From the human T2T-CHM13v2.0 reference genome, Homo sapiens, in assembly GCF_009914755.1 (NCBI RefSeq), contig NC_060931.1: 64,000 nt of DNA; one strand, given 5' to 3'. A model generated the notes under the pieces. That model did not search any database and was not told the DNA's origin. It saw nothing but the letters and a program-made list of their open reading frames with translations. The position numbers were made by a program, and so were the translations under genes. Below are positions 4,211 to 36,349 of the stretch, piece after piece (within the stretch, counting starts at the first letter, position 1; the number at the start of each line of letters is the position of its first letter).

Positions 4211-4882
4211 AGGGCTAATCAGGTGAGGAGAGAGAGACACCTTCCCTGAACTTGAGAGAAGCAAATGATGTGAACTTCCTAGACCTTGCACCTTATGACC
4301 CAGAGTCAAGACCCCCTCCTCAACTACTCTGCTCAACTGTTGAGCCCACTCACAACTCACACTAGCAATTCTCACCTCCCCAGTCCTGGATGCCAGGGAG
4401 GTTGCTGTTTTCCCAGGTCTTGCCTTGTTTTGCTGCCCCTGAGGACAAGCATTAAGGCTCTCTTCTTTGTAAATCATTTAATGCAAATATGTGGAGAGGT
4501 AGAGCCAGAGCAACTCAAATAACACAGTAGAAGTTTTAAAGATGATTATTTATATATCATTCTTACACTTCCTGACCAAGGTCCATGGTTCCTGACTTCT
4601 GACAGAGATGGCAACTGGAATCCAGGTTGTCTTCTGCCTTCTGCTTTGATTTCTATATGAGGGTGCATCAAAATCCATTCCGATGGGCTTCCTTTATAAA
4701 GACCCTTCCTTCCAGCAGGACAGTAAGTGTTCCTTAGTCTCAACTTATGTGTATGTGTTGGAATACAAATGTAAACATTCTAAATTAAATATCAGCAAAT
4801 GCAATCTAGCAATGGATACAGGAAAAAAGACAATATGACCAAATGGAATGATCTGCCAGTTTGGTTTTTCTTTTAAACTTTG

Positions 4883-5282
4883 TGATATGGTTTGGATTTG
4901 TGTCCCCACCCAAATCTCACGACAAATTGTAATCCTCAATATTGGAGGTGGGGCCTGGTGCTGGTGATTGGATCTTGGGGGCAGATTTTTCCCTTTGGTG
5001 GTGTTTTCGTGATAGTGAATTCTCATGAGATCTGGTTGTTTAAAAGTGTGTGGCACCTCCCCGCTCTCTCTTCCTCCTGCTCCAGCCATGAGAAGTACTT
5101 TCTGGCTCCCCCTTCACCTTTCACCATGATTGTAAGTTTCCTGTGGCCTCCCCAGAAGCCAAGCAGAAGCCACTATGCTTCCTGTACAGCCTGCAGAACT
5201 GTGAGCCAATTAAACCTCTTTTCTTTATAAATTACCTAGTGCCAGGTATTTCATTATGGCAATGGGAGAATGGACAAATACA
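4883..5282 (+). mobile_element. MaLR solo LTR (MST-like)
   Basis: tgatatggtttgg...caattaaacctcttttctttataaattacc...aataca. Confidence 0.87.
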
Positions 5283-5342
5283 CTTCTTTTATCAGTACTT
5301 ACCAGCATCAAAATTATTATGGCTTTATAAAAGAATTGAGAA

Positions 5343-5646
5343 GACCAGCCTCTGTGGCTTATACTGGTAATCCCAGCACTTTGAGAGGCTGAAGCAGGAG
5401 AATTTCTTGAGCCCAGGAGTTTGAGATCAGCCTGGGCAAGAATAGTAAGGCTACAAAATAAAACATAAAACATTCAAAAATTTTAGCTGGGTGTGGTGAT
5501 GTGCACCTATAGTCCCAGCTACTTGGGAGGCTGAGGTGGGACAAGTTCCTTGAGCCCAGGCATTGGAGGCTGCAGTGTACTGTGATTGCACCATTGTACT
5601 CCAGCCTGGGTGACAGAGGGAGACTCAGTCTCTAAAAATGTTTTTA
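5343..5646 (+). mobile_element. Alu (AluJ-like)
   Basis: Diverged Alu dimer flanked by the TSD aaaagaattgagaag. Confidence 0.9.
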
Positions 5647-10962: not shown

Positions 10963-11299
10963 GGCTCACAAGCTAGAGACCCAGGAAAGCTGAAGGACTG
11001 AGAACATGGGGAGCCAATGATGTTCACCCCAGTTCAAGGGCAGGAGAACATGAGATGGGATGTCTGAGTTCACGGGCAGGAAAGAAGGGACGAATTCCTC
11101 TGTGCTCTGCCTTTTGCTCCATTCAGGCCCTCAGTGAACAGGATGATGGCCACCCCCATGAGGGAAGGCAGCCTACTGAGTCCACCTATCCAGATGCCAA
11201 TCTCACCTGGAAACAGCCCCCACAGACATGCTCAAAAACAGTGCTTAATCTGGGCAACCAGTGGCCCATTCAAATTGACACATAAAATTAACCATCACA
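10863..11299 (-). mobile_element. ERVL LTR (MLT2-like) containing a (CA)n microsatellite
   Basis: ttagggttctccagagaaacag...ttgacacataaaattaaccatcaca. Confidence 0.8.
10908..10957. repeat. (CA)~25 microsatellite
   Basis: Directly visible. Confidence 0.98.
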
Positions 11300-14200
11300 T
11301 GTGTGTAACTGTTTTAATCCTTCAAACCACTCTGTAAAGTTGCTACTAATGCTATCATCCCCCCTGAACAAGCAGTGAGTCCAGGAGGTGGGCATGAGCC
11401 CGTGAGGTCCTGGGCCCTGGCCACTTTGCAGGATTGCTGAGGGATGTCACACACCTGTCTCCACTCCCTACCTACCCAGTCTCTTTAGCTGGAAGCAGAT
11501 TACTCCTTGGCGGATCTTCAACCTCTGGGAAAGTGCGCCAGGGAACACTGCCCCTCAAATGCCCCAGAAAGGTGCAGAGCTGAACAGATCTCAAAAGACA
11601 AGATGGACATTTTTCTTCATGTTCCAGCCATGTGTATTGTTCCAGGAGATCAGGAACTAATTTTCCTAGATTAGATGGTTTAAGCATAAAAACAAGTGTA
11701 ATGCTGTGGACTCAAAACAGGAAGAGGCTCCCCTAATGAATATAGACCAGGGTTCCCACAATGGGTTTTGAGAAACGTTAGTCCAGAGAAATGCCTTTTG
11801 AGTGATGCACTGCAAACTTTACCATTCTCTTGGAAAATCCCCATCTCAAAGACCCTGAAAAATCTCATAATAAAGAATCCTGTTTAACCTAGCACTTCTC
11901 CTCCCAATTAGATCATGGGGCATTCTCTCCTTTTATAAAGAAGACTTTTAACATCTCACAGCATTCATTTTGGAAAACAGGACTAGACCAATGCTGACCA
12001 AAAGAAGGGTTCCACATACAAGATGTGTAGTGTGGTCATTCTGAGTGTCTCATCCATCCTGACCAGGTGGGGACCTGCCAGACAGAATTCCGAGAGGAAT
12101 CCCTGGCTGCATCCAACAGCGAAGCGTGGCTGTGCTTCCTGATTGGGCATCGTGTGCTCTGCGCCCACTCCCTACCTGCTTAGAAGGCCCCTTGGTGCTG
12201 GGTTTGAATGTGGGCCATGGACCCCCAGGAAGGCCCTGGGGCCTTCTAACCGCCCATGGACACCTACGCAGAAGAACAAAGTGGAGAAATTAAGGACTGG
12301 GGCAGCTGTCATAATTCATGTGTTCTGTTCTCTCTCCAGACATCCAAGAAAAAGCCAGTGACTGTTCCTGAGGGCGCCTGTTAAGAGCTGGCTTTTTGGC
12401 TGTGGTGACCAGTCAGTCACGACCACTCTTCCGAGAGCAACACCAAGTGGAAACCCCGCCAAGTGGGCTTTTCAGGAACCCTCTCACCACCCAAGGCCTT
12501 TGGATCTTATATCTAACAAATTACATGTTACATTATTTTTTAAAAAACAGGTTAGTGACAACTAAGATAGTCTCTCCAGAATTAGAGTCTGATGTCAGAT
12601 TCAGAAAATCCCCCGTTCCTTGGGAATTCCCATGTCACTCATTCTGCATTAATGATATTTATTCTCTCTCATTGTTTTATTCTTAAAAAATAGCTCCCCT
12701 GGTTGCAATGTGATGTTAAGTATATTACATGTCAGTTCATATATTACAGCTCGCACCACTCCTGGGTATATGTTTCCAAATAGCTCTCACTCCACAGTTC
12801 CAGTTCCACATTAAATATGGGCTGCCATGAGTGGAGCCCGAAAGGGTTGTCTGTTCCATTCCCGCTTCTTGTTTTCCCTGGAAGTATTTTCCCCTCCTAT
12901 TTTATACTCCTCAGGGAAGATGTGCCCTCCAGTAAGAAAAGTCTACCTGGGGAAGGTAGAATGTGTTCTTGCTCTAGAGTTTCTTGAGGGGAGGTGAGAA
13001 GGGGCAGCTGTTTGACAGAGTGCATGCAGCCTTCCAGGGGCTGGCACTGGTTTGGCACATGAGTGGACACCCTGACTAGGGGATGTGGGATGCCAGAAAC
13101 CATCAAGATCCTTGGAAAAAAGCCAAAATATCCTTCCTTCTGCAACATGAACATCAAAATGAGTTTTTGTCTTCTGTGGCTATCATGCTCTTGACCATCT
13201 GTGTTGTAGGGTCATTAACAGACAGTTTCAGGGATTCCGTGGGAGGTCATCCTTTTAGTTACTTCAACAGAATCAACCATGACAACCTAGTTTTATTTCC
13301 ATTTGCTGCAGGATCCAAGCATAAGGCTCTCATGAGCCACCAGCTTCTTTGTTTCATTCATTCATTCAATTAACATATATTATGCATTGGGTTTCATCCA
13401 GTTCCTCAGTGATCAAGAAAAAAACCCAATGTTCTCATCATGCTTGTGGCCTGTGGCAAGGTCCACAGTCCTTGGGACAAAGTCCTCATGTGCCGTCTCC
13501 AGATACAGTCTTCACATGGCAGATGCCAGGCAGCGCCAATAACACTTTCCTCTGGTGCGGCTCTTCTAAGTAGTAAACAAGCAGAAATAGACAGCCTGTA
13601 TGTCATACCCAAGGGGGCTTGTGAAATGATTCTCAGTGGGCCCCAAAGGCTCTCAAAAGGTGAATGAGTCAAGAGCCACTTTCCTCCTGTGCAACTTTGC
13701 CAGTTCTGATTTCCCCCTCATACTTTCTCTCAGATTATCTTAGCCATTGCCCAACACGATGTGACGAGCCCCAGGCACCTCTCTTTTTTAAGATAAGGGG
13801 GAATCTTCAGAGGAAAAGTGACTGCAACAGGGCCAGGGCACAAGGGTCTCTGGAGCCCACTGCTGTCTCCCTTGGCTGCAAAGCTGAAGGCCTGAGACCC
13901 TTGACAAATGAGAATCAGATTGTGTCCAAAATACATCTCAGCCTCTTGGGGCTGTCTGTAGCCATATAAGGAGCTGGTCAAGAGCTATTTATCAGAAAAG
14001 TTCTTGAGGGCAAAGAGAACCTACAGGGCACTTCAATTAGCTGAGCAGTCCCCAGCTCTGATGTGCCTGCAGCTGTCACCAGGAAGGGGTATCAACTATT
14101 CAAATGGCACTGTTATTGCGCTTTCATATGCAAGGGCTACAAAGTGCCCCCCTTCCCTTCATCAACTCCTTTGAACATCTTTGCCCATATTTGCCTAGGA

Positions 14201-15404: not shown

Positions 15405-15716
<312 letters not shown>

Positions 15717-33500: not shown

Positions 33501-34314
33501 CAGTGTCTCAGCAATATGTTTTGTTATAGATTTATTTTGTTAATTCTACCTGGTAGTTATGCTTCTTGAAACAGGTTTTATATATTTCATCCATTCTGGA
33601 AAACAGTCATTTTCCCCATTTTCTCTCTCTTTCTGGAACTTCTAGTATAAGTATATGAGGAACCTTTTCATTCAATCTTTCATGTCTCTTAATCCCTTTT
33701 GTATTTTTTCTTTATATCTTGGACAACATTCTGGGTAATTTCTTTAAATCTATCTCTTACCTACTTCATTAACTTTTTCTTTAGCTGAATCTATTTTTTT
33801 CTGATCAGCAGAAAAACATCCACTGAGTTTTTTTAAAAAGACCTATTTAATCAACATCAAGATCAGACTCTTATAGTGATCAACAATATGCATACAAAAA
33901 TAAGTATATTATAAAACTTTTGTTGTAATGCTTCATACTTTCCACAGGAAAAAAACTAAAATTTCTGTTATATAGTTAGTCACAAGAACTATCTTTATGG
34001 ATTTTTGCTCATAGGAGTATGTTCTAAAGCATCTCTTTTTGTAGGATGTAGATCCTGCCACCGCAGTTGGCTGAGTTAATAAACTTGTTGTAACCTGTAG
34101 CTTTCCTGTTATTTTTCAGGCTTTCCTCTTTTGCTAAGCACTTTTTTTTGGCAGTAATTAAAATCTTCTGCCACTGCTATAGCTTCTCCTGATGCTAATA
34201 CAACCATAACCACCTTGGTTTTGTGGTTTGGCAAAGTATTGGCTCTCCCAGTATAAGAACCGGAGCTTCTGCTCCATGATCTCCTTCCTTTATGGGTCCA
34301 GAATTTGAAGATTA

Positions 34315-34545
<231 letters not shown>

Positions 34546-34729
34546 TTACAATCTCTTGCTTAGCCAGGGATTTCCCTACTTCACAGTTATGGCCATTCAT
34601 AGTATGTTGTTTCCGAATGACAATCTTATCCATGAACTTATGGTCACCAAAGTTTACAGAAGCAAAGACTCTCCTCATCACTGCCCCAGTCTGTAATGAT
34701 TTCACTTCAGTCAATCTTCCTATACTGCT

Positions 34730-34849
34730 ATGTATTATCTGTTATGAGAACGATAGATGCAGTTGCCTGTGTAAGGAAATATTTAGTGGCTGCTTCTGTA
34801 GAGCGGGGTTTTTTTTTTGTTTTTTTTTTAATGAAGATTGGGATAAGGG
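34730..34849 (-). pseudogene. NUMT piece 1: MT-ND2 5' fragment
   Basis: Reverse complement ccccgctctacagaagcagccactaaatatttccttacacaggcaactgcatct encodes ND2 'PRSTEAATKYFLTQATAS'. Confidence 0.9.
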
Positions 34850-34867
34850 GATGGAATTTAGGCTTAG

Positions 34868-35183
34868 CCTATAATTACATTAATTTTATTGTCCCTAGGA
34901 GGTTTACCTCCATTAACAGGATTTCTGCCTAAATGAGTCATCATTCAAGAACTTACAAAAAACAACAGTCTTATTTCCCCAACCATTATAGCTATTATAA
35001 CCCTACTCAACCTATACTTTTACATATGCTTAATTTACTCTGGCTCAGTGACAATATTCCCCACATCCAATAACATAAAAATAAAATGACAGTTTGAAAA
35101 CACAAAGCCCACATTATTCCTCCTCCCACTTATCTCTTCTACCTTCCTTTTACCCATTTCCCCATTAACACTATCTATGATCT
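34868..35183 (+). pseudogene. NUMT piece 2: MT-ND2 3' end
   Basis: tccctaggaggtttacctccattaacaggatttctgcctaaatga encodes 'SLGGLPPLTGFLPKW' in the mitochondrial code; also ataaaatgacagtttgaa. Confidence 0.92.
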
Positions 35184-35222
35184 AGAAATTTAGGTTAAAC
35201 AAGACCAATGGCCTTCAAAGCC
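35184..35222 (+). pseudogene. NUMT: truncated mt-tRNA-Trp (5' half, anticodon TCA at 35215-35217)
   Basis: agaaatttaggttaaacaagaccaatggccttcaaagcc follows ND2 directly, as in mtDNA gene order. The T-arm and 3' acceptor strand are missing. Confidence 0.88.
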
Positions 35223-35226
35223 ATTG

Positions 35227-35737
35227 AACATCACCCGTCCAATGAATCCCCTCCCCCATGAAAAAAGTTTTATGTTTCTATGTTAATTATCCCACAGATT
35301 TCTTAAATTATAGCATTCACAGACACAGAACTAATCATATTTTATATTCTCTTTGAAGCTACACTTATCCCTACACTAATCTTTATTATCTGCTGAAGTA
35401 ACCAACCAGAACACCTCAATGCAAGCTCGTATTTCCTATTTTATACACTAGTAGGGTCTCTCCCCTTATTATACTTATTTATACCCAAAATACCTTAGGT
35501 TCACTAAATATAATAACGACATTCAGTACCCAGGAACTACTAGTCTCCTGATCCAACAATCTCATATGATTAGCATGTATCATAGCTTTTATAGTAAAAA
35601 TACCCCTATATGGACTTCACCTATGACTCCCTGAGGCTTATGTAGAAGAAACCCCCATTGCTGGCTCAATAGTACTTGCAGCAGTGCTCCTAAAATTAGG
35701 TGGTCATGGTATAATACAGCTCACCCTCACCCTTAGC
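35227..35737 (+). pseudogene. NUMT piece 3: internal MT-ND4 fragment
   Basis: acagaactaatcatattttatattctctttgaa (TELIMFYILFE); cccctatatggacttcacctatgactccct (PLYGLHLWLP); attgctggctcaatagtacttgcagcagtgctcctaaaattaggtgg ([15 protein letters not shown]). Confidence 0.93.
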
Positions 35738-35872
35738 ATTGACTTAATGGGCAGAATATTATGCTTTGTTGTTTGGACTTATGTAGTACAGGAATAACTG
35801 CTAGAATGAGAAGAGCGAATAGAAGGGCCAGTATAACTCCTAGTTTATTAGGAATGGATTGTAAGATTGTAT
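35738..35872 (-). pseudogene. NUMT piece 4: MT-CYB fragment
   Basis: Reverse complement tccattcctaataaactagga...tccaaacaacaaagcataatattctgcccattaagtcaa encodes cytochrome b 'SIPNKLG...SKQQSMMF.PLSQ'. Confidence 0.9.
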
Positions 35873-36349
35873 AATCTTCCTATACTGCTCAAAATAATCT
35901 CTTACATGTTGTTCTTCAATGTCTTCCTTAATGCCACAAAGATCTTTTTCATAGGTAACTGGGCACCTGGTCTTTGGTAAAATTTTTAAAAAATATCCCT
36001 CTTTGATTTCACAACTCTTCCACCACCTTGTGTGGACTTCCATTCATGACTGAATCTGCTTGCACCATGGTGGCATATATGACAAACCTAAAGATTCTGG
36101 AGTGCTTAGTGTGTGCGTCTTTCATTACCACACAATCTGTGTGCATTTCCCATTACTGAAAATGGCTCTTCCATCTCTTATGATTATTTTAATGAAGAGC
36201 TTCTGCAGTTCTTTGGGCTCTTTGGGACACTGACTAAGACATGACTGCAACAGGAGGAGACTTTAACTGTGTTTCCTCTGTTGTGGCCACAGGCAGAAAA
36301 TCACAGAGTTTTTCATATCAGTGGTTATATTTTTAATTTCTGGGTAATT

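What the first reader, a model, noticed from the sequence alone, without database searches (positions are those of the whole stretch)
34713..35889. NUMT flanked by a perfect 17-bp target-site duplication without retrotransposition hallmarks
Seen: aatcttcctatactgct occurs at 34713-34729 and 35873-35889, exactly bracketing the NUMT. Removing the insert and one copy restores continuous HNRNPA1 RRM2 sequence (DYFEQY-KI). Known: NUMTs are generally attributed to end-joining at double-strand breaks and usually lack long TSDs, while TSDs of this size are typical of L1-mediated insertion. Here there is no terminal poly(A), and neither end matches the TTTT/AA endonuclease consensus well. Inference: mtDNA was captured at a 17-nt staggered break that was filled in, or at an abortive endonuclease cut.
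Basis: partly seen in the sequence, partly recalled or inferred. Interest (0 to 1): 0.78.

Follow-up and report, generated by a model that had tools for sequence, protein, structure and literature searches.

The report
Mitochondrial DNA insert with 17-bp duplication
A patchwork of four mitochondrial DNA pieces sits inside an old dead copy of the HNRNPA1 gene and is bracketed by an exact 17-base repeat of the target, an unusually long example of a kind of repair scar that has already been described.

Summary
AATCTTCCTATACTGCT occurs only at 34713-34729 and 35873-35889 (0 expected by chance) and brackets a 1143-bp insert. 27 of 29 HNRNPA1-family loci from the same genome, the parent gene included, carry this stretch once, so it is a true target duplication.

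The insert is more complex than annotated. It holds four mtDNA pieces: ND2 5' part (inverted, unannotated), ND2 3' part plus tRNA-Trp, ND4, and CYB (inverted). The T10GT10 run near the left end is ND2 sequence, not a poly(A) tail.

The junctions look like end joining: 6-nt and 18-nt fillers, one blunt or 1-nt join, and 2-nt and 1-nt microhomologies. No canonical L1 endonuclease site is present.

Best reading: mtDNA fragments were captured by end joining at a break with 17-nt staggered cuts whose overhangs were filled in.

This kind is in print. Hazkani-Covo & Covo 2008 found target duplications of 1-11 nt in 17 of 71 numt insertions and gave the same model. The NUMT itself is catalogued (Tsuji 2012, older than the rhesus split).

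What is new is the length. None of 21 other old NUMTs I could test had a flanking repeat above chance. Interest is modest.

The parts
34161..36235 (-). Host: ancient processed pseudogene of HNRNPA1 (annotated LOC100421782), split by the insert inside RRM2
   Evidence: about 77% identity to some 28 HNRNPA1-family places. K2P 0.227 to the parent gene exons (L037, 711 aligned sites); hnRNP A1 RRM2 in PDB, E 2e-12.
34713..34729 (.). Left copy of the 17-bp target duplication AATCTTCCTATACTGCT
   Evidence: Single copy in 27 of 29 paralog loci.
34730..34735 (.). 6-nt filler ATGTAT at the left junction. Its last 5 nt equal the last 5 nt of the insert.
   Evidence: no match to the ND2 continuation in 7 of 7 stand-in NUMTs (0 of 6 sites in the 4 rows whose match starts at 34736; my count).
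34736..34849 (-). F1: ND2 5' part, inverted (about mt 4599-4703 by my extrapolation). Not in the RefSeq table given, nor among the rows for this locus (330-332) in Tsuji's list.
   Evidence: at least 24 other genomic matches at 72-90% identity; in other NUMTs these lie about 500 bp from the ND2 3' part on the same strand. Proton_antipo_M under code 2, E 0.005 (below the curated cut-off).
34809..34829 (.). T10GT10 run inside F1; an expanded mitochondrial T-run, not a poly(A)/poly(T) tail
   Evidence: the stand-in NUMTs have a T-rich run of about 13-15 nt at the same place.
34850..34867 (.). 18-nt filler between F1 and F2, origin unknown; weak likeness to the start of tRNA-Trp (35181-35198)
   Evidence: matches neither the continuation of F1 nor the sequence upstream of F2 in the stand-ins. 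The tRNA-Trp likeness (11 of 18, one exact 8-mer) is my own reading and is within chance.
34868..35225 (+). F2: ND2 3' part plus the 5' two thirds of mt tRNA-Trp (mt 5198-5552 in Tsuji's table)
   Evidence: NADH_dehy_S2_C, E 2.4e-17; weak tRNA match from 35184, E 0.077, below the gathering score; hg18 row; ends.
35227..35737 (+). F3: ND4 piece (mt 11029-11505 in Tsuji's table); at least one frameshift. Base 35226 (G) is unassigned.
   Evidence: Proton_antipo_M, E 1.9e-15; frames.
35738..35872 (-). F4: CYB piece, inverted (mt 15579-15714 in Tsuji's table)
   Evidence: Cytochrom_B_C, E 5e-7.
35873..35889 (.). Right copy of the 17-bp target duplication
   Evidence: only its first A could also be CYB sequence (1-nt microhomology).

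Best explanation
An old HNRNPA1 retrocopy suffered a double-strand break whose two strand cuts lay 17 nt apart. At least four mtDNA fragments from distant parts of the mitochondrial genome, two of them inverted, were joined to each other and to both chromosome ends by non-homologous end joining. Filling in the two 17-nt overhangs left the target sequence on both sides of the insert.

Shown: the single-copy state in the paralogs, the mitochondrial identity and order of the pieces, and the junction anatomy.

Inferred: the staggered break, the fill-in, and that all pieces went in as one event. Whether the overhangs were 5' or 3' cannot be told.
For: (1) True target duplication. The 17-mer occurs exactly twice. 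It is single-copy in 27 of 29 paralog loci, including the parent gene. Neither copy is explained by mtDNA.

(2) Both copies share all 4 differences from the parent sequence and differ from each other at 0 of 17 sites (my count on the L037/L038 rows). So the duplication arose late in the pseudogene's life.

(3) The whole insert is mtDNA plus short fillers. The pieces come from about mt 4.6, 5.2-5.55, 11.0-11.5 and 15.6-15.7 kb, in mixed orientation.

(4) The junctions are of the end-joining kind: 6-nt filler, 18-nt filler, blunt or 1 nt, 2-nt microhomology (GC), 1-nt microhomology (A).

(5) There is no terminal poly(A). In the L1-like geometry both possible first-nick sites match TTTT/AA at 3 of 6 positions (GATT/GA and TGCT/CA; my reading).

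(6) The same model is published for 17 of 71 recent numts with 1-11-nt duplications (PMC2567098). Captured-DNA insertions without poly(A) also carry TSDs; the 4-21-nt range is given for that paper's whole table, poly(A) cases included (PMC2671141).

(7) The composite was not seen elsewhere. None of the 19 other CYB-bearing loci fetched carries the ND4 piece beside CYB. So it is not a copied nuclear segment.
Against: No orthologous empty site was seen; the single-copy state rests on paralogs.

Seventeen nt exceeds the published maximum of 11 nt. None of 21 other old NUMTs tested here had a comparable repeat.

A 17-bp duplex of this sequence is stable (dG37 -18.7 kcal/mol at 1 M salt). Two nicks that far apart would not fall apart unaided, which hints at an active process such as an enzyme, replication or unwinding.

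The junction positions rest on other diverged NUMTs (77-92% identity) used as stand-ins for the ancestral mtDNA, so they may be off by a few nt.
Confidence: 0.72

Rival explanations
1. The staggered break was made by the L1 ORF2p endonuclease: a first-strand nick and a second-strand cut 17 nt away, the usual L1 spacing. Reverse transcription failed or never started, and the open break was patched with mtDNA by end joining.
For: 17 bp lies in the L1 TSD range (7-20 bp, recalled) and above the 1-11 nt seen for numts. Tsuji et al. 2012 found TTTTAA enriched in numt flanks (P about 0.0014) and speculate that L1-EN nicking mediated many numt insertions. The stability of the 17-bp duplex argues for an active process. 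A TTTT/GA site lies on the minus strand 1 nt outside the right boundary (my reading).
Against: In the geometry that gives L1 TSDs (3' overhangs) both nick sites match TTTT/AA at only 3 of 6 positions. The better site (TTTG/AG at the boundary, or TTTT/GA 1 nt off) lies in the opposite, 5'-overhang geometry, and such A/T-rich hexamers are common here. There is no poly(A) and no L1, Alu or cDNA remnant. Tsuji et al. themselves note that TAT-type oligomers are more enriched than the L1-EN consensus.
Confidence: 0.15
2. Replicative template switching (FoSTeS/MMBIR type). A nascent strand left the chromosome, copied several mtDNA templates in turn, and re-entered 17 nt behind where it had left, which duplicated those 17 nt.
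For: The insert has four pieces in mixed orientation, and a duplication at the return point is typical of such events (established knowledge, recalled). Somatic mtDNA insertions in tumours have been linked to complex rearrangements (PMC4448678, abstract seen in the listing only).
Against: Only 2 of 5 junctions show microhomology, and of just 1-2 nt. Two carry unexplained fillers of 6 and 18 nt. Template switching is reported to act in cis on nearby templates (PMC2567098), and mtDNA is not nearby.
Confidence: 0.08
3. L1-mediated retrotransposition (TPRT with template switching) of mitochondrial RNAs.
For: TSD length only.
Against: There is no poly(A) at either end; the internal T-run is ND2 sequence. 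Pieces lie in both orientations. ND2 and tRNA-Trp are still joined, whereas processed mt RNA would be cut there. There is no endonuclease site.
Confidence: 0.03

Closest known systems
Numt insertions with target sequence duplication at cohesive natural breaks (Hazkani-Covo & Covo 2008, PLoS Genet, PMC2567098)
   Same: mtDNA captured by end joining. A short chromosomal sequence is duplicated on both sides. Junctions are blunt or have small microhomology or filler. No deletion of target bases. The same fill-in model applies.
   Different: The duplication is 17 nt against a published range of 1-11 nt (17 of 71 events). The event is old (before the rhesus split), not human- or chimpanzee-specific. 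The insert has four pieces with two fillers longer than 5 nt; that study set 10 integration events with insertions larger than 5 nt aside from its junction classification.
L1-mediated insertions (class 1 templated sequence insertions; Onozawa & Aplan 2016, PMC5110952)
   Same: The flanking TSD is of L1-like length.
   Different: No poly(A), no polyadenylation signal, no 5'-TTTT/A site in the right geometry, and the source is DNA-like, multi-piece and in mixed orientation.
Repair-mediated capture of chromosomal DNA (Pace et al. 2009, PMC2671141)
   Same: Insertions without poly(A) that carry filler plus TSD. In the part of the table shown, 6 of 12 distal acceptor sites without poly(A) had a TSD; the table's TSD range is 4-21 nt.
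   Different: The donor there is nuclear DNA; here it is mitochondrial.
Concatenated / rearranged NUMTs (Wei et al. 2022, PMC9630118)
   Same: Several mtDNA pieces are joined to each other within one nuclear insert.
   Different: Those are mostly recent and large. Flanking duplications are not discussed in the passages I read.

Membership tests
NUMT (nuclear copy of mitochondrial DNA) | Sequence homologous to mitochondrial genes, readable under the vertebrate mitochondrial code | tested here: met
   code 2: NADH_dehy_S2_C E 2.4e-17; Proton_antipo_M E 1.9e-15 (ND4 piece); Cytochrom_B_C E 5e-7. The ND2 5' piece reaches only E 0.005, below the cut-off; mt coordinates in Tsuji's hg18 table.
NUMT (nuclear copy of mitochondrial DNA) | Embedded in nuclear sequence | tested here: met
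   Both flanks are the HNRNPA1 pseudogene. The insert is present in T2T-CHM13 and in hg18.
End-joining capture at a cohesive break with target duplication | Duplicated target flanks the insert; single copy at the empty site | tested here: met
   By paralogs only: 27 of 29 loci carry it once. An orthologous empty site is not testable with these tools.
End-joining capture at a cohesive break with target duplication | Junctions blunt, or with 0-4 nt microhomology or short filler | tested here: met
   6-nt filler, 18-nt filler, 0-1 nt, 2-nt microhomology, 1-nt microhomology.
End-joining capture at a cohesive break with target duplication | Duplication length within the described range (1-11 nt) | tested here: not met
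   17 nt against 1-11 nt. This is a difference of degree, not of kind.
L1 (TPRT) mediated insertion | Poly(A) tail at the 3' end of the insert, next to a TSD | tested here: not met
   neither end has one. The T10GT10 run is internal and of ND2 origin.
L1 (TPRT) mediated insertion | First nick at a 5'-TTTT/AA-like site | tested here: not met
   My reading: GATT/GA and TGCT/CA, 3 of 6 each, in the TSD-forming geometry.
L1 (TPRT) mediated insertion | TSD of about 7-20 bp | tested here: met
   17 bp. The range is recalled.
Replicative template switching (FoSTeS/MMBIR) | Microhomology at every template switch | tested here: inconclusive
   2 of 5 junctions have 1-2 nt; two have fillers. The stand-in mtDNA is diverged.

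The most novel reading that the evidence does not exclude
The 17-nt stagger is the footprint of an enzyme-made break, most plausibly an L1 ORF2p nick followed by a second-strand cut, that was hijacked by mtDNA instead of cDNA. That would be a concrete instance of Tsuji et al.'s speculation that L1 endonuclease activity drove numt insertion in primates.

A related bold reading concerns the donor. The insert's own 5-nt terminal repeat (TGTAT at 34731-34735 and 35868-35872) would mean the donor was a circle of ligated mtDNA pieces, opened by a 5-nt staggered cut and filled in like the target.
Probability: 0.12. Interest if true: 0.6.

Novelty: new member of a known kind. Interest (0 to 1): 0.3.

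Why it matters
Numt insertions preserve the ends of natural chromosome breaks. Hazkani-Covo & Covo 2008 used them to infer that nicks up to 11 nt apart on opposite strands can become a double-strand break. This locus would push that figure to 17 nt, into the range of L1 target-site duplications. It therefore bears on whether some numts were captured at retrotransposon-made breaks. On its own it is a single well-preserved case, not a new mechanism.

Tried and rejected
(1) Poly(A) or small-RNA idea for the unannotated left 140 bp. Rfam at E up to 1 found only a weak tRNA match, and ARAGORN found nothing. The stretch turned out to be inverted ND2.

(2) Longer duplication. The repeat finder extended the repeat to 32 nt at 81% identity. 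The extra 15 nt on the left are the 6-nt filler and the start of the ND2 piece, so the duplication is 17 nt.

(3) A copy of the composite elsewhere in the genome. None was seen among the 19 other CYB-bearing loci fetched.

(4) Survey of NUMT ends. Searches with three 2-kb pieces of a 12-kb NUMT used as stand-in mtDNA gave tables, but no loci could be cut out. From smaller fetches, 21 other NUMTs had both ends in hand. Rows dropped:
- one whose left end lay outside the piece;
- 8 of 14 in the second batch, whose mtDNA ran to the end of the fetched piece;
- one nuclear duplicate, C9:94.58M = C6:32.53M.
One further row (C2:117.18M) has an ambiguous end but was kept.

A position-restricted score (tolerance 8 nt) missed even the window's own repeat, because filler displaces it, so the unrestricted score was used. 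That method cannot see short or diverged TSDs.

(5) Dayama 2014, the LoMA paper, the 2010 numt review and the 1,019-genome paper: the passages found say nothing on TSDs at numts.

(6) Earlier findings of this scan were not open to the session.

Full report
**Observation**

The 17-mer AATCTTCCTATACTGCT occurs exactly twice in the 64-kb window, at 34713-34729 and 35873-35889. That holds even with two mismatches allowed, and none of 100 shuffles gave a match. The two copies bracket 1143 bp, 34730-35872.

**The target**

The flanks belong to a processed pseudogene of HNRNPA1 on the minus strand.
- A search of the window's own genome with the left flank found some 28 other HNRNPA1-family places at about 71-78% identity. 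One is an exon-by-exon match at C12:54.25 Mb, which I take to be the parent gene (the gene's location is recalled).
- The left flank translates to hnRNP A1 RRM2, residues 137-179 of 1UP1, E 2e-12.
- The right flank with its 17-mer reads ...[10 protein letters not shown].

With the insert and one 17-mer removed, the sequence aligns without a break across the junction to 27 of 29 loci. The other two lack the right flank, and L037 and L038 overlap on the parent gene. Each carries the stretch once. No primate outgroup is held by these tools, so this is an empty site by paralogy, not by orthology.

The 17-mer differs from the parent sequence at 4 of 17 sites. Both copies share all four differences and do not differ from each other (my count on the L037/L038 rows). 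So the duplication happened late in the life of a pseudogene that is now K2P 0.23 from its parent.

**The insert**

The annotation given covers ND2, ND4 and CYB pieces but leaves 34730-34868 unexplained. That stretch holds a T10GT10 run that could pass for a poly(A) tail on the other strand. It is not one.
- The stretch has at least 24 other matches in the genome at 72-90% identity.
- In those loci it is part of longer NUMTs and lies about 500 bp from the ND2 3' part. So it is the ND2 5' region, inverted here.
- At the place of the T-run those NUMTs carry a T-rich run of about 13-15 nt.

Under the vertebrate mitochondrial code the four pieces hit Pfam as follows:

| Piece | Pfam family | E-value |
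|---|---|---|
| F1, ND2 5' part | Proton_antipo_M | 0.005 (below cut-off) |
| F2, ND2 3' part | NADH_dehy_S2_C | 2.4e-17 |
| F3, ND4 | Proton_antipo_M | 1.9e-15 |
| F4, CYB | Cytochrom_B_C | 5e-7 |

Tsuji et al. 2012 list three of the pieces in hg18 (supplementary file 3):
- chr7:116690819-116691169 = mt 5198-5552, plus strand
- chr7:116691204-116691676 = mt 11029-11505, plus strand
- chr7:116691685-116691820 = mt 15579-15714, minus strand

Their age classes are a, a and o. Class a means after the mouse split and before the rhesus split (methods passage). The short CYB piece is class o (before the mouse split), probably unreliable at 135 bp. The locus is thus catalogued and present in two assemblies. 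The inverted ND2 5' piece is not among that table's rows for this locus (330-332), nor in the RefSeq table I was given.

**Junctions**

No mtDNA is held for this genome (24 contigs), so other NUMTs served as stand-ins for the ancestral mtDNA. From left to right the anatomy is:

| Element | Coordinates | Note |
|---|---|---|
| Left 17-mer | 34713-34729 | |
| Filler ATGTAT | 34730-34735 | 6 nt |
| F1, ND2 5' part, inverted | 34736-34849 | |
| Filler | 34850-34867 | 18 nt, unexplained |
| F2, ND2 3' part + tRNA-Trp | 34868-35225 | |
| G | 35226 | unassigned |
| F3, ND4 | 35227-35737 | joined to F4 with 2-nt microhomology (GC) |
| F4, CYB, inverted | 35738-35872 | joined to the right 17-mer with 1-nt microhomology (A) |
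| Right 17-mer | 35873-35889 | |

The mtDNA that would continue beyond either end does not resemble the 17-mer. The composite was not seen elsewhere: none of the 19 other CYB-bearing loci fetched has ND4 beside CYB. So it is not a copy of a nuclear segment.

**Retrotransposition hallmarks**

Neither end has a poly(A).

Take the pre-insertion top strand as ...CAGTC|17-mer|CAAAAT.... The two nicks that would give L1-type 3' overhangs read GATT/GA (bottom strand, left boundary) and TGCT/CA (top strand, right boundary). Each matches TTTT/AA at 3 of 6 positions.

The best site is TTTG/AG on the bottom strand at the right boundary, or TTTT/GA one nt further out. It lies in the opposite, 5'-overhang geometry. 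These are my own readings. The consensus itself is quoted.

Pieces lie in both orientations, and the ND2-tRNA-Trp junction is unprocessed. Both facts speak for a DNA source, not an RNA source.

**Mechanism**

The simplest account is end-joining capture of several mtDNA fragments at a break with cuts 17 nt apart, followed by fill-in of the overhangs.

This model is already published for numts. Hazkani-Covo & Covo 2008 found duplications of 1-11 nt in 17 of 71 recent human and chimpanzee integrations. They read them as the overhangs of natural cohesive breaks (passages).

Pace et al. 2009 report TSDs at captured-DNA insertions that lack poly(A) (passages). The 4-21-nt range is given for their whole table, poly(A) cases included.

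**How unusual is 17 bp?**

It exceeds the published maximum of 11 nt.
- Their longest exact repeats across the two ends were 4-8 nt. One 10-nt case lies in a TA microsatellite.
- 420 mismatched left/right pairs gave up to 10 nt. The window gives 17.
- Dropped rows are listed under Tried and rejected.

The method cannot see short or diverged duplications. The result says only that long, intact ones are rare.

**Is a perfect repeat credible at this age?**

Yes. The chance that 34 sites stay unchanged depends on the substitutions per site since insertion:

| Substitutions per site | P(no change in 34 sites) |
|---|---|
| 0.03 | 0.36 |
| 0.055 | 0.15 |
| 0.09 | 0.05 |

My recalled estimates place 0.03 at about the rhesus split and 0.055 at about the New World monkey split. 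The CYB piece is K2P 0.08 from its closest NUMT relative, L040. That puts a rough upper bound on the nuclear change since insertion, though it rests on only 133 bp.

**Rivals**

- An L1-endonuclease-made break patched with mtDNA cannot be excluded. The length fits. A 17-bp duplex is stable (dG37 -18.7 kcal/mol), so nicks that far apart need active separation. Tsuji et al. speculate about L1-EN and numts. But the motif evidence at this site is weak.
- Replicative template switching would explain the mosaic and the duplication. It fits poorly with the fillers and the minimal microhomology.
- Retrotransposition of mt RNA is contradicted.

**Verdict**

It is an unusually long example of a known kind of event in an already catalogued NUMT, and interest is modest.

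Searches of the paper library for numt with 'target site duplication', with microhomology and duplication, and with TSD and LINE-1 endonuclease surfaced no description of this locus's duplication, nor of numt duplications longer than 11 nt. I read only listings and selected passages. Supplements other than Tsuji's table were not opened.

Noticed in passing
34736-34849 (window): An inverted ND2 5' piece of the NUMT is missing from the RefSeq pseudogene table given (MTND2P37 starts at 34869) and from the rows for this locus (330-332) in Tsuji's hg18 list. The insert therefore has four mtDNA pieces, not three.
   Followed up: yes
34731-34735 and 35868-35872 (window): The insert begins (after one A) and ends with the same 5 nt, TGTAT. 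So the 6-nt 'filler' at the left junction repeats the CYB-derived right end. This could be chance (roughly 1 in 400-1000 for that exact position, by my estimate). It could also hint at a circular or concatenated donor opened by a 5-nt staggered cut.
   Followed up: partly
34850-34867 vs 35181-35198 (window): The 18-nt filler between the two ND2 pieces resembles the start of tRNA-Trp further inside the insert (11 of 18, with the exact 8-mer AATTTAGG). By my estimate this is within chance for an AT-rich 1.1-kb insert.
   Followed up: partly
34809-34829 (window): The T-rich run of ND2 (about 13-15 nt in other NUMTs) has grown to T10GT10 here. This is probably slippage after insertion, and it mimics a poly(T)/poly(A) tail.
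   Followed up: yes
L095/L096 (C6:32.53 Mb) and L117/L118 (C9:94.58 Mb): Two NUMTs with the same mtDNA span also share their nuclear flanks, so they are a nuclear duplication of one insertion.
   Followed up: partly
Tables (C13, C14, C15, C21, C22, C4:49.3M, C20:30.2M, C1:127.8M, C3:95.7M, C9:76.9M, C24:11.35M, C2:95.4M): One composite NUMT, two mtDNA blocks about 235 bp apart that match on opposite strands, recurs at about 20 or more places at about 81-87% identity to the stand-in. Most are at low coordinates of C13-C15, C21 and C22, or at coordinates I take to be pericentromeric. It was evidently spread by segmental duplication.
   Followed up: no
L086 (C6:95.66 Mb): Another small mosaic NUMT: a CYB-region piece and an ND2-region piece lie about 110 bp apart. 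Its left end lay outside the fetched piece, so its flanks could not be tested.
   Followed up: no
L082 (C1:49.90 Mb): A 421-bp NUMT sits in a TA microsatellite and has an 8-10-nt TA-rich repeat across its ends. Whether this is a target duplication or just the repeat context cannot be told. Tsuji et al. report TAT/TATA enrichment at numt flanks.
   Followed up: partly
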